Source: an uncultured archaeon
Lineage (GTDB): Archaea; Asgardarchaeota; Lokiarchaeia; Sigyniarchaeales; SOKP01
Assembly (NCBI GenBank): GCA_964486045.1
Contig: CAZALK010000002.1
Location: 160,001-224,000, forward strand
Length of the DNA stretch: 64,000 nt
Direction of reading: 5' to 3'
Shown: piece after piece, positions 45,650-46,241 of the stretch
How the letters are laid out: each line of letters begins with the position of its first letter
How positions within the stretch are numbered: the stretch's first letter is position 1
The notes under the pieces: model-generated
Databases searched by the model: none
What the model was told of the DNA's origin: nothing
The model's input: only the letters and a program-made list of their open reading frames with translations
Position numbers and translations under genes: made by a program

Positions 45650-46165
45650 ATGACCGAACTACACATTTCAACTACAAATAAAGGATTACCACTCGGAACT
45701 AAAGCACCTATGATTGACGAAGAAGATATTGATGGAGATAACGTGAATTTAACTAAATTGTTGGAAAAACACAATGGAGTTTTAATCGATCTATTTAGAG
45801 GAAGTTGGTGAATTCATTGCAGAAAACACCTCACATATTTAAATGAAAATTTATCAATACTAGAAAAACATAATATTAAGTTAATAGCTATCGCAATAGA
45901 TCTTCCTGATAAATTAATAAAAATGAAGTATAAAAACAACTTTAAGATACAGTTTATTACTGATCGCGCCGGAAGAATTAGTAAGGCATATAATGTTTTC
46001 TTAGATAGAAAGAGTGCTGTCCATGATGGATTGCAAATAAGCCATGCGATACCCTCGAAGTTTCTTGTCAATAGAGAAGGAAACATCGTTTGGGAATATA
46101 TCGGAGCAAAAACAGATAGACCATCAATCGAATTAATTGAAGATGCAATTATAAAATATCTATAA
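45650..46165 (+). CDS. Selenocysteine-containing peroxiredoxin-like (AhpC/TSA, thioredoxin-fold) protein, 171 aa
   Basis: Continuous frame MTELH...GTKAP...DLFRGSW-U(TGA 45809)-IHC...AIPSKFLVNREGNIVW...DRP; the TGA is the first position of a CxxC motif; SECIS-like hairpin follows. Confidence 0.88.
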
Positions 46166-46171
46166 TTTATA

Positions 46172-46241
46172 ATCCCATTAAGAATGATTTATGTGCATAA
46201 ATGATTGGCATGTGATGACAACCTTGCAAGGGTTCTGGGAA
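46172..46241 (+). ncRNA. Eukaryote-like SECIS element in the 3' UTR
   Basis: AUGAU (46184-88) with UGAC (46216-19) gives a tandem G.A/A.G core; 8-bp helix UUAUGUGC/GCAUGUGA; apical loop contains AAA; basal UCCCA/UGGGA pairing. Confidence 0.75.

What the first reader, a model, noticed from the sequence alone, without database searches (positions are those of the whole stretch)
45650..46241. Hidden selenoprotein with a eukaryote-type SECIS carrying an extra side hairpin
Seen: RGSW-TGA-IHC in a thioredoxin-fold frame that the ORF track reports only as its C-terminal 80 aa. About 20 nt after the stop is an AUGA...GA kink-turn-type core, an 8-bp upper helix and an AAA loop. An extra hairpin (AACC-UUGCAAG-GGUU, 46220-34) is inserted on the 3' side. 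A competing hairpin (UUUAUG/CAUAAA, 46188-46201) is incompatible with the SECIS helix. Known: Lokiarchaeota encode selenoproteins with eukaryote-like 3' UTR SECIS elements. Inference: the alternative fold could tune Sec insertion. The gene is divergent from gltA-acnA, consistent with protecting Fe-S enzymes.
Basis: partly seen in the sequence, partly recalled or inferred. Interest (0 to 1): 0.7.

Follow-up and report, generated by a model that had tools for sequence, protein, structure and literature searches.

The report
Loki selenoprotein gene, three-armed SECIS
This is a peroxiredoxin-like selenoprotein gene of a Loki-type Asgard archaeon with its published "eukaryote-like" selenocysteine signal, so the gene is ordinary for this lineage. 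The extra side hairpin is real and is a conserved third arm of these signals that the papers I could read do not describe.

Summary
Window 45650-46165(+) is one 171-codon AhpC/TSA-fold gene with an in-frame TGA at codon 54, which lies at 45809-45811.

- 24 of 25 full-length orthologues keep that TGA.
- 119 of 126 more distant homologues have Cys there, 116 of them as CxxC.
- The genome holds tRNA-Sec, SepSecS, aSelB, a PSTK-like gene and two selD genes.

The 3' UTR element fits the published lokiSECIS feature for feature: AUGA, a 9-position stem, an 11-nt A-rich loop ending in G, then GA. The gene is the published Prx-like family (PrxL, Mariotti 2016). Orthologues are already listed in Huang 2024.

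The side hairpin is not special to this gene. It covaries in the orthologues and recurs with many different stem sequences in about 108 elements of this archaeal family. Together with a closing helix and a covarying G-C pair it makes a canonical kink-turn at a three-way junction, like a k-junction. The main texts I could read do not mention this. This scan has already noted the same architecture on other DNA.

The "competing hairpin" is not supported: it folds at +1.0 kcal/mol, has a pairing probability of about 0.05, and shows no covariation. The idea that the gene protects Fe-S enzymes is untested, and the gltA neighbour is only partly conserved.

The parts
45650..46165 (+). Prx-like (PrxL.2-type, UxxC) selenoprotein gene, 171 codons plus TAA
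   Evidence: Translation with TGA=U. Pfam AhpC-TSA 1.7e-18 and Redoxin 1.4e-12. The closest solved structures are Bcp and ResA. Orthologues are conserved on both sides of the TGA.
45809..45811 (+). UGA read as selenocysteine (U54). Cys57, the partner residue of the redox box, is encoded at 45818-45820.
   Evidence: TGA is kept in 24 of 25 full-length orthologues, and one has TGG. Cys stands at this position in 119 of 126 homologue representatives, 116 of them as CxxC. TGA is an ordinary stop elsewhere in the window, closing 7 of 37 long frames.
46173..46177 (+). 5' strand of the closing (lower) helix, UCCCA, which pairs with 46236-46240
   Evidence: Predicted in the minimum-free-energy fold, with pair probabilities of 0.73-0.99. 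It covaries in orthologues and across gene families. A closing stem of at least 4 bp was found in 92 of 108 elements.
46182..46187 (+). Bulged strand of the kink-turn: G46182 (-1b), loop A83-A84-U85, then G86 and A87. AUGA is 46184-87.
   Evidence: The base two positions before AUGA pairs with the base just after GA in 129 of 130 elements: G-C 119, A-U 6, C-G 2, U-A 2. The maximum in shuffles was 119. AUGA is invariant.
46188..46216 (+). SECIS upper helix (U.U plus 8 pairs, 46188-96 with 46208-16) and the 11-nt apical loop 46197-46207 (AUAAAUGAUUG)
   Evidence: The geometry is the same as the published lokiSECIS. RNAalifold predicts it from the orthologue alignment. All nine pairs covary across 70 elements.
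46217..46219 (+). Non-bulged strand of the kink-turn: G217 and A218 (partners of A87 and G86), then C219 (-1n, pairs with G46182)
   Evidence: GA or AA follows the stem in all elements. C is the next base in 69 of 79 elements, and the exceptions are compensated on the other strand.
46220..46234 (+).
   Evidence: RNAalifold predicts it independently. It is 95% paired, with compensatory changes, in orthologues. It is present in 78 of 79 elements against a shuffle mean of 47 and maximum of 58. With a looser cut-off it is present in 108 of 108 elements, with 61 different 5' arms and a G-pyrimidine step in the loop of 105.
46236..46240 (+). 3' strand of the closing helix, UGGGA
   Evidence: Same evidence as for 46173-46177. 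It lies 1 nt after the T helix here, and 0 nt after it in 64 of 92 elements.
46248..46259 (+). T-rich run (TTTCTTTTTTTT), probably the archaeal transcription termination signal just behind the SECIS
   Evidence: Read directly from the sequence. In seven loci read, T runs of 5-9 follow the element within about 20 nt. Its function is inferred, not tested.

Best explanation
The stretch encodes a cytoplasmic Prx-like thiol/selenol oxidoreductase.
- Its redox box is Sec54-x-x-Cys57.
- UGA-54 is decoded as selenocysteine by Sec-tRNA(Sec) delivered by the archaeal SelB. The signal is a Loki-type SECIS that starts about 373 nt further on, 8 nt behind the stop codon.
- The SECIS is a compact three-way junction built on a canonical kink-turn. 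The kink-turn has a closing pair G46182-C46219, a 3-nt loop AAU, tandem G.A/A.G pairs, and then U.U.
- The non-canonical arm is the 9-position helix with the 11-nt A-rich loop.
- The canonical side is continued by the small side hairpin (T helix), which follows C46219 directly.
- A 5-bp closing helix ties the element together. An oligo-T terminator follows.

Shown by computation: the gene, the conserved UGA, the Sec machinery, the three helices and the kink-turn pair.

Inferred: Sec is actually inserted; the RNA kinks; the T helix stacks under the kink-turn like the third helix of a k-junction; and the T helix helps an as yet unknown factor (L7Ae-type protein or aSelB) to recognise the element.
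For: Gene
- Pfam AhpC-TSA and Redoxin match. The closest solved relatives are Bcp and ResA, and the CxxC of ResA aligns with U54/C57.
- TGA is kept in 24 of 25 full-length orthologues, with conserved protein sequence on both sides.
- Homologue representatives have Cys at position 54 in 119 of 126 cases. Public gene calls include 53-aa N-terminal pieces and C-terminal pieces cut at the UGA.

Machinery
- tRNA-Sec scores 63.5 bits and SepSecS has E 9e-117. aSelB carries PF21440.
- There is a PSTK-like gene at 1e-40 and two selD genes with in-frame TGA.

SECIS
- It meets every published lokiSECIS feature.
- A core-only model finds 12 sites in this genome, most of them behind frames with in-frame TGA. 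It also hits 25 of 25 genomes of the family.

Three-way junction
- RNAalifold predicts the upper helix and the side hairpin.
- On the orthologue alignment 94.4% of cells are paired against 29-52% when the partners are slid, and 7 pairs are compensatory.
- On 70 elements of many gene families all 19 pairs covary, and 91.7% are paired against 40-53% when slid.
- Hairpin frequency far exceeds shuffles and random genomic DNA.
- The kink-turn closing pair is Watson-Crick in 129 of 130 elements, with four pair types.
Against: - There is no experimental evidence of any kind: no RNA run holds the stretch, and there is no selenium labelling and no structure probing.
- The fold energy of the single sequence is no better than shuffles (z = 0.34).
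- The 70-sequence alignment was fitted to the model's structure, which favours that structure.
- The elements come from related genomes and are not independent.
- No Rfam family, SECIS families included, matches even at E up to 10.
- One orthologue has TGG instead of TGA (L019).
- Kinking, coaxial stacking and the binding partner cannot be tested with these tools.
Confidence: 0.85

Rival explanations
1. One reading: the SECIS upper helix alternates with a competing hairpin (UUUAUG/CAUAAA, 46188-46201). This switch would tune how efficiently Sec is inserted.
For: The complementary bases are present in the window and in most orthologues, with 95% of cells paired.
Against: - As drawn, the hairpin has a 2-nt loop.
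- The 5-bp version folds at +1.0 kcal/mol against -5.4 for the SECIS stem. Its pair probability is 0.04-0.05 against 0.73-0.94.
- No pair shows a compensatory change. Six of the seven departures break a pair and one makes a wobble.
- Its bases are explained by other constraints, namely the conserved A-rich loop and the U-rich stem. In the other SECIS elements of this genome, by inspection of the sequences, the stem bases differ while the loop stays A-rich, so the complementarity is not general.
Confidence: 0.04
2. The side hairpin is conserved but is not part of the Sec-insertion signal. It could instead be a 3'-end stability element, a terminator or processing element, or a binding site for something unrelated to recoding.
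For: It lies near the transcript's probable end, a few bases ahead of an oligo-T run. No experiment links it to recoding.
Against: - It lies inside the closing helix of the SECIS. It follows the kink-turn's -1n base by 0-3 nt and precedes the closing strand by 0-1 nt in most elements.
- It accompanied every Loki-type SECIS examined, whatever the gene.
- A comparable hairpin occurs at only 11% of random genomic sites, against 68 of 79 here.
- Archaeal termination needs oligo-T, not a hairpin (established knowledge).
Confidence: 0.12
3. The TGA is a true stop. The locus would then be a split or decaying gene, or two small ORFs, and the downstream RNA fold would be unrelated.
For: Gene callers annotate it this way in public databases. 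One orthologue carries a frameshift (L009) and one carries TGG (L019).
Against: - Both halves are conserved at the protein level in 24 orthologues, with TGA at exactly the catalytic Cys position.
- In 40 of 68 genomes of the family the homologues found carry 1-2 in-frame TGA, apart from two partial matches that stop short of the redox box.
- The full Sec machinery and a SECIS are present.
Confidence: 0.03

Closest known systems
lokiSECIS (Mariotti et al. 2016, PMC4989117), also called the Asgard type I eSECIS-like structure (Huang, Xiao and Zhang 2024, PMC11227280)
   Same: - AUGA lies directly before the stem.
- The stem has 9 positions and the loop 11 nt, starting A-rich and ending in G.
- GA lies directly after the stem.
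- The element sits just behind a selenoprotein gene, and PrxL is one of the published host genes.
   Different: The published descriptions I could read cover the core, upper stem and apical loop, and in Huang 2024 an 'internal loop and lower stem' without conserved bases. They do not mention:
- a hairpin inside the 3' side of that loop;
- the covarying pair that closes a 3-nt kink-turn bulge.

Figures, and the supplement of the 2016 paper, could not be read.
PrxL.2 of Lokiarchaeum (Mariotti 2016) and the 'Prx-like thiol:disulfide oxidoreductase' selenoproteins of Asgard archaea (Huang 2024, supplementary file 79)
   Same: - It has the AhpC/TSA fold.
- Its redox box is UxxC, not the T/SxxC of true peroxiredoxins.
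- It has no Cys outside the box.
- Orthologues at 78-80% identity (the proteins of L005 and L008) are listed in Huang's file. Two orthologous loci lie on contigs of the LAZR01 metagenome that Mariotti analysed.
   Different: This exact protein is not in Huang's file. This genome has three paralogues: UxxC here, UxxC on C14 and UxxU on C12.
Eukaryotic SECIS, type I
   Same: - It lies in the 3' UTR.
- It has the AUGA...GA kink-turn-type core, with a non-Watson-Crick pair above the tandem G.A pairs.
- It has unpaired A's in the apical loop and a basal helix.
   Different: - Here the upper helix is 9 positions long. From my own recollection the eukaryotic one is about 12-15.
- It has a third hairpin where eukaryotes have the 3' half of the internal loop.
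- No Rfam family, SECIS families included, matches at E up to 10.
- No SBP2 is known in Asgard archaea.
k-junction of TPP riboswitches (Wang, Daldrop, Huang and Lilley 2014, PMC4005666)
   Same: [quoted passage not shown] Here the T helix follows the -1n base of the non-bulged strand.
   Different: - It is unrelated in sequence and function.
- Here the closing helix is joined by a 4-5 nt linker on the bulged strand.
- No three-dimensional data exist, so coaxial stacking and kinking are inferred.
Bcp-type peroxiredoxin (2cx3) and ResA/TlpA thiol-disulfide oxidoreductases (4nmu, 1st9)
   Same: They share the thioredoxin-like fold, at E 1e-10 to 1e-7. The WCxxC of ResA aligns with W-U54-x-x-C57, and the peroxidatic Cys of Bcp aligns with C57.
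   Different: - Sec replaces the first Cys.
- By inspection of the N-terminus there is no signal peptide or membrane anchor (not tested), unlike ResA/TlpA, which from my own knowledge are membrane-anchored.
- The substrate is unknown.

Membership tests
lokiSECIS (Mariotti 2016) | AUGA immediately before the stem | tested here: met
   AUGA lies at 46184-87 and the stem starts at 46188. The definition is quoted.
lokiSECIS (Mariotti 2016) | 9-bp stem and 11-nt apical loop | tested here: met
   46188-96 pairs with 46208-16 (8 standard pairs plus U.U at the base). The loop is 46197-207, 11 nt.
lokiSECIS (Mariotti 2016) | The first five loop bases are mostly A, and the last loop base is G | tested here: met
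   The loop is AUAAAUGAUUG: 4 of the first 5 bases are A and the last is G46207. The base before that G is U here, where A is the commoner choice.
lokiSECIS (Mariotti 2016) | GA (or AA) directly after the stem | tested here: met
   G46217 and A46218.
lokiSECIS (Mariotti 2016) | Located close behind the stop codon of a selenoprotein gene | tested here: met
   The stop ends at 46165, the element starts at 46173 and AUGA at 46184.
Eukaryotic SECIS (Rfam models) | Match to an Rfam SECIS covariance model | tested here: not met
   cmscan of 45600-46400 at E up to 10 gave three weak matches, none to a SECIS family. The whole window at gathering thresholds gave none. This agrees with Mariotti's report that standard SECIS tools miss these elements.
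Prx-like (UxxC/CxxC) selenoprotein | AhpC/TSA-type thioredoxin fold | tested here: met
   PF00578 scores 67.2 bits against a cut-off of 26, and PF08534 scores 48 bits. Solved relatives are Bcp and ResA.
Prx-like (UxxC/CxxC) selenoprotein | Redox box C/U-x-x-C instead of T/S-x-x-C, and no other Cys | tested here: met
   The box is W-U-I-H-C, and Cys57 is the only Cys. Among homologue representatives 116 of 126 have CxxC.
Prx-like (UxxC/CxxC) selenoprotein | The in-frame UGA is conserved and the genome can make and insert Sec | tested here: met
   24 of 25 orthologues keep TGA. tRNA-Sec, SepSecS, aSelB, a PSTK-like gene and selD are present. The PSTK match is below the NCBIfam cut-off (140.7 against 290.5 bits).
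Prx-like (UxxC/CxxC) selenoprotein | Selenium is actually incorporated at residue 54 | not testable with these tools
   This needs 75Se labelling or mass spectrometry.
Kink-turn / k-junction (Lilley nomenclature) | A canonical helix ending in a Watson-Crick pair, then a 3-nt bulge, then tandem G.A and A.G | tested here: met
   G46182-C46219; loop A83 A84 U85; G86.A218 and A87.G217. The -1b:-1n pair is Watson-Crick in 129 of 130 elements, with 4 pair types. The non-Watson-Crick geometry itself is inferred from sequence.
Kink-turn / k-junction (Lilley nomenclature) | [quoted passage not shown] | tested here: met
   The T helix 46220-34 starts directly after C46219. The offset from GA/AA is 1-2 nt in 51 of 78 elements. 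The definition is quoted.
Kink-turn / k-junction (Lilley nomenclature) | Kinked geometry, with the third helix coaxial with the canonical helix | not testable with these tools
   This needs a crystal structure, cryo-EM, FRET or gel-mobility experiments.

The most novel reading that the evidence does not exclude
The Loki-type SECIS is a k-junction rather than a simple hairpin with a kink-turn core. It would be a canonical kink-turn whose canonical arm is a conserved third hairpin carrying a near-invariant G-pyrimidine step in its loop.
- This hairpin would be required for UGA recoding.
- It would be the docking or pre-folding device that lets an archaeal factor (L7Ae or aSelB) do without SBP2.
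- The open 3' internal loop of the eukaryotic SECIS would be what remains after this arm was lost.
Probability: 0.3. Interest if true: 0.7.

Novelty: new member of a known kind. Interest (0 to 1): 0.45.

Why it matters
The gene and its SECIS add nothing new in kind. PrxL selenoproteins and the lokiSECIS were published in 2016 and catalogued across Asgard archaea in 2024.

The refined anatomy is the part worth keeping. It consists of a textbook kink-turn with a covarying closing pair, and a conserved third helix and closing stem around it.
- Nobody knows what recognises the SECIS in archaea.
- How the eukaryotic SECIS/SBP2 system arose is an open question.
- A defined three-arm element gives concrete mutants to test: T-helix deletion, loop G-Y changes, and -1b:-1n swaps with compensation.
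- It also gives concrete binding partners to test: Loki L7Ae and aSelB.

On the practical side, public databases hold this protein only as fragments, or with Trp at the Sec positions, so annotation pipelines still miss it.

Tried and rejected
- **Rfam scans.** The whole window at gathering thresholds and the locus at E up to 10 gave nothing relevant.
- **Single-sequence folding.** It was no better than shuffles, so the case rests on comparison.
- **Competing hairpin.** Rejected on energy, loop size and lack of covariation.
- **Spread beyond this archaeal family.**
  - The core model hit 25 of 25 genomes of the family and 0 of 125 genomes of other Asgard families. This may only reflect how specific the model is.
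  - The one PrxL homologue found in a sister family (G249, UxxU) has a 3' UTR with AUGA and a possible UUGGG/CCCAA hairpin. I could not resolve a clean upper helix there, so I draw nothing from it.
  - A phylum-wide FlpD/MvhD search listed only Cys forms among its top rows and was abandoned.
- **Huang 2024 supplement.** I looked for this exact protein. It is absent, though orthologues are present.
- **Mariotti 2016 supplement.** It is not held, so I could not check whether its per-gene fold drawings show the side hairpin.
- **An error of mine.** I first took the Sec codon to be 45812-14, and my notebook entry says so. The correct position is 45809-11.

Full report
**Observation**

Reading window 45650-46165(+) with TGA as U gives one 171-residue protein...FRGSW-U-IHC.... 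Under the standard code it appears as a 53-aa ORF and an 80-aa ORF. The TGA is at 45809-45811, the partner Cys57 codon at 45818-20, and the TAA stop at 46163-65.

Behind the stop lie, in order:
- UCCCA at 46173-77;
- a purine-rich linker ending in G46182;
- A83, then AUGA at 46184-87;
- a helix of U.U plus 8 pairs (46188-96 with 46208-16) around an 11-nt loop, AUAAAUGAUUG;
- GA at 46217-18, then C46219;
- the hairpin AACCU-UGCAA-GGGUU at 46220-34;
- C46235, then UGGGA at 46236-40;
- a T-rich run at 46248-59.

The competing hairpin as drawn would leave a 2-nt loop.

**The gene is a selenoprotein gene**

- The protein matches Pfam AhpC-TSA (1.7e-18) and Redoxin.
- Its closest solved relatives are Bcp peroxiredoxin and ResA. 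The WCxxC of ResA aligns with W-U54-x-x-C57.
- Seven orthologous loci in Promethearchaeota (Loki) genomes and 18 in sediment metagenomes are 76-91% identical along the whole length, on both sides of the TGA. Of the 25 loci that include codon 54, 24 have TGA there. One has TGG, and another has a frameshift later in the gene.
- In an exhaustive search of 1.8 billion representatives, 126 homologues span the site. Of these, 119 have Cys at position 54, and 116 have CxxC. The six with Trp are TGA codons read by a Trp-reading code.
- Public gene calls include 53-aa N-terminal fragments ending ...FRGSW, and C-terminal fragments.
- TGA is an ordinary stop elsewhere in the window, closing 7 of 37 long frames.
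- Across 68 genomes of the same family, the homologues found in 40 carry one or two in-frame TGA. The only exceptions are two partial matches that stop short of the redox box.

**Sec machinery**

The genome is 5.18 Mb in 45 contigs, 31% G+C. It holds:
- tRNA-Sec at 63.5 bits, above the Rfam threshold;
- SepSecS next to it, E 9e-117;
- an archaeal SelB with the aSelB domain III, 4 kb away;
- a PSTK-like gene, E 1e-40, below the NCBIfam cut-off;
- two tandem selD genes that themselves contain in-frame TGA.

**The element is the published lokiSECIS**

Mariotti et al. 2016 define it by these features: AUGA directly before the stem, a 9-bp stem, an 11-nt apical loop whose first five bases are mostly A and whose last is an ultraconserved G, GA (or AA) directly after the stem, and a position just behind the gene. 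They name PrxL (UxxC and UxxU forms, with no other Cys) as one of five host families. The window meets every feature.

- Two orthologous loci lie on contigs of the LAZR01 metagenome that they analysed.
- Huang et al. 2024 list orthologues (the proteins of L005 and L008) in their Prx-like selenoprotein file, though not this exact protein.
- No Rfam family, SECIS families included, matches, as Mariotti also reported for standard tools.

**The side hairpin is real and general**

*Orthologues.* On a plain MAFFT alignment of 25 orthologous 3' UTRs, RNAalifold predicts exactly the upper helix and the side hairpin.

Counting my three-helix structure on that alignment gives 94.4% of cells paired. Sliding the partners gives 29-52%. 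Seven pairs carry compensatory changes; for example the outer pair of the hairpin is A-U, U-G, G-U or G-C.

*Other genes.* A 44-nt core-only model, without flanks, finds 12 sites in this genome. Most lie behind frames with in-frame TGA: selD, three PrxL paralogues, three frames I read as VhuD-like (by motif, untested), and several small unannotated frames. The model hits 12 of 12 genomes of the genus and 25 of 25 of the family.

In the 3' flanks, which the model does not see, the counts are:

| Measure | Observed | Control |
|---|---|---|
| Hairpin of at least 4 bp starting within 5 nt of GA/AA | 78 of 79 elements | shuffle mean 47, max 58 |
| Stronger hairpin (score of 6 or more) | 68 of 79 | shuffle mean 14; 11% of random genomic sites |

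With further genera the hairpin is present in 108 of 108 elements at a looser cut-off.
- There are 61 different 5' arms.
- The loop holds a G-pyrimidine step in 105 elements (random expectation 43).
- A closing helix of at least 4 bp is present in 92, abutting the hairpin without a gap in 64 of those.

On a model-fitted alignment of 70 elements all 19 pairs covary, and 91.7% are paired against 40-53% when slid. That alignment leans towards the structure it was fitted to.

**A canonical kink-turn**

The base two positions before AUGA pairs with the base directly after GA/AA in 129 of 130 elements: G-C 119, A-U 6, C-G 2, U-A 2. Shuffles reach at most 119, and neighbouring registers give 18-79.

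So the core is a closing pair (G46182-C46219), a 3-nt bulge (A83, A84, U85), tandem G86.A218 and A87.G217, and then a position that is often non-Watson-Crick (U88.U216; unpaired in 35 of 70 elements). The third helix leaves the non-bulged strand directly after the closing pair. This is the topology that Lilley and colleagues define as a k-junction.

**What is not supported**

- *The competing hairpin.* It folds at +1.0 kcal/mol even when trimmed to a possible loop. Its pair probability is about 0.05 and it shows no compensatory change.
- *The link to Fe-S enzyme protection.* This is speculation. The divergent gltA neighbour is kept in 10 loci and the convergent FMN-enzyme gene in 10. In L007 the upstream neighbour is a 450-aa ORF that I read as M28-peptidase-like (untested). 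No gltA match was found upstream in L006 or L008.

**Mechanism**

Computation shows the recoded UGA, the machinery and the three-armed RNA. The rest is inferred.
- aSelB carrying Sec-tRNA(Sec) is recruited to the ribosome at UGA-54 through the 3' UTR element.
- The kink-turn brings the A-rich loop arm and the T helix/closing helix stack into a fixed angle.
- The T helix, with its G-Y loop, stabilises that fold or is itself read by the unknown recognition factor.
- In the protein, Sec54 attacks a disulfide or peroxide substrate and is resolved by Cys57.

**Novelty and limits**

The gene and element are new members of published kinds.

The third helix, the closing helix and the covarying kink-turn pair are not mentioned in the main texts of Mariotti 2016, Huang 2024, Sun 2021 or the 2026 review. 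No paper in the library pairs SECIS with a three-way junction or k-junction in this sense. I could not see the figures or the 2016 supplement.

Earlier notes of this scan describe the same three-armed architecture on other genomes and on another contig of this one. I reached it from my own counts here. My data cover one archaeal family only.

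Noticed in passing
L017:898-1392 (+), L011:1141-1389 (+), L018:1177-1413 (+), L014:1130-1390 (+), L106 (- strand): Five further Loki-type SECIS elements of this genome sit behind short frames with in-frame TGA. None of the four frames scanned has a significant Pfam match. They include a 164-codon frame with two adjacent Sec codons (...HADUUAD...), two small membrane-like proteins, and an 86-codon Cys/Sec-rich frame with four TGA. 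These are candidates for unannotated small selenoproteins.
   Followed up: partly
L105 (G000:C14:124319-124804) and L015 (G000:C12:150974-151462): The genome has three PrxL paralogues: UxxC in the window, a second UxxC (GNWUSHC) on C14, and a UxxU form on C12. Each has its own three-armed SECIS.
   Followed up: partly
L136:1868-10680 (G000:C15): There is a Sec gene cluster: aSelB (472 aa, PF21440), tRNA-Sec and SepSecS within 8 kb. A zinc-ribbon protein lies beside aSelB. A 226-aa ORF without any Pfam match lies directly after SepSecS. Huang 2024 mention an Asgard-only hypothetical protein that often lies near Sec genes, and I did not check whether this is it.
   Followed up: no
L109 and G000:C1:756646-759741: Two tandem selD genes each contain in-frame TGA (one and two). 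The second is followed by a type I 9/11 SECIS with AA instead of GA. Mariotti 2016 describe the selD SECIS as a distinct longer form.
   Followed up: no
P0032, P0033, P0038 (public protein clusters): Some public full-length PrxL entries read W-x-x-W at the redox box. This looks like two Sec codons translated as Trp by gene calling under a TGA=Trp code. The close relatives returned by the search are stored only as C-terminal (94-117 aa) pieces, and exhaustive search also finds 53-aa N-terminal pieces.
   Followed up: partly
L019:601-1113 and L009:1501-2012: One metagenomic orthologue has TGG (Trp) in place of the Sec codon. One genome orthologue has a frameshift near codon 140. Both keep the SECIS. 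These may be sequencing errors or early decay, and I could not tell which.
   Followed up: no
L074 (G007:C17:12839-15221): Three Loki-type SECIS elements lie within 2 kb on one contig of a relative. This suggests a cluster of small selenoprotein genes.
   Followed up: no
window 41547-49057: The PrxL gene sits inside a group of citric-acid-cycle genes. Aconitase and citrate synthase lie on the minus strand upstream. An FMN-dependent dehydrogenase-like gene and class II fumarase lie on the minus strand downstream. These gene names are my reading of the ORF translations. The arrangement is kept in many relatives but not all.
   Followed up: partly
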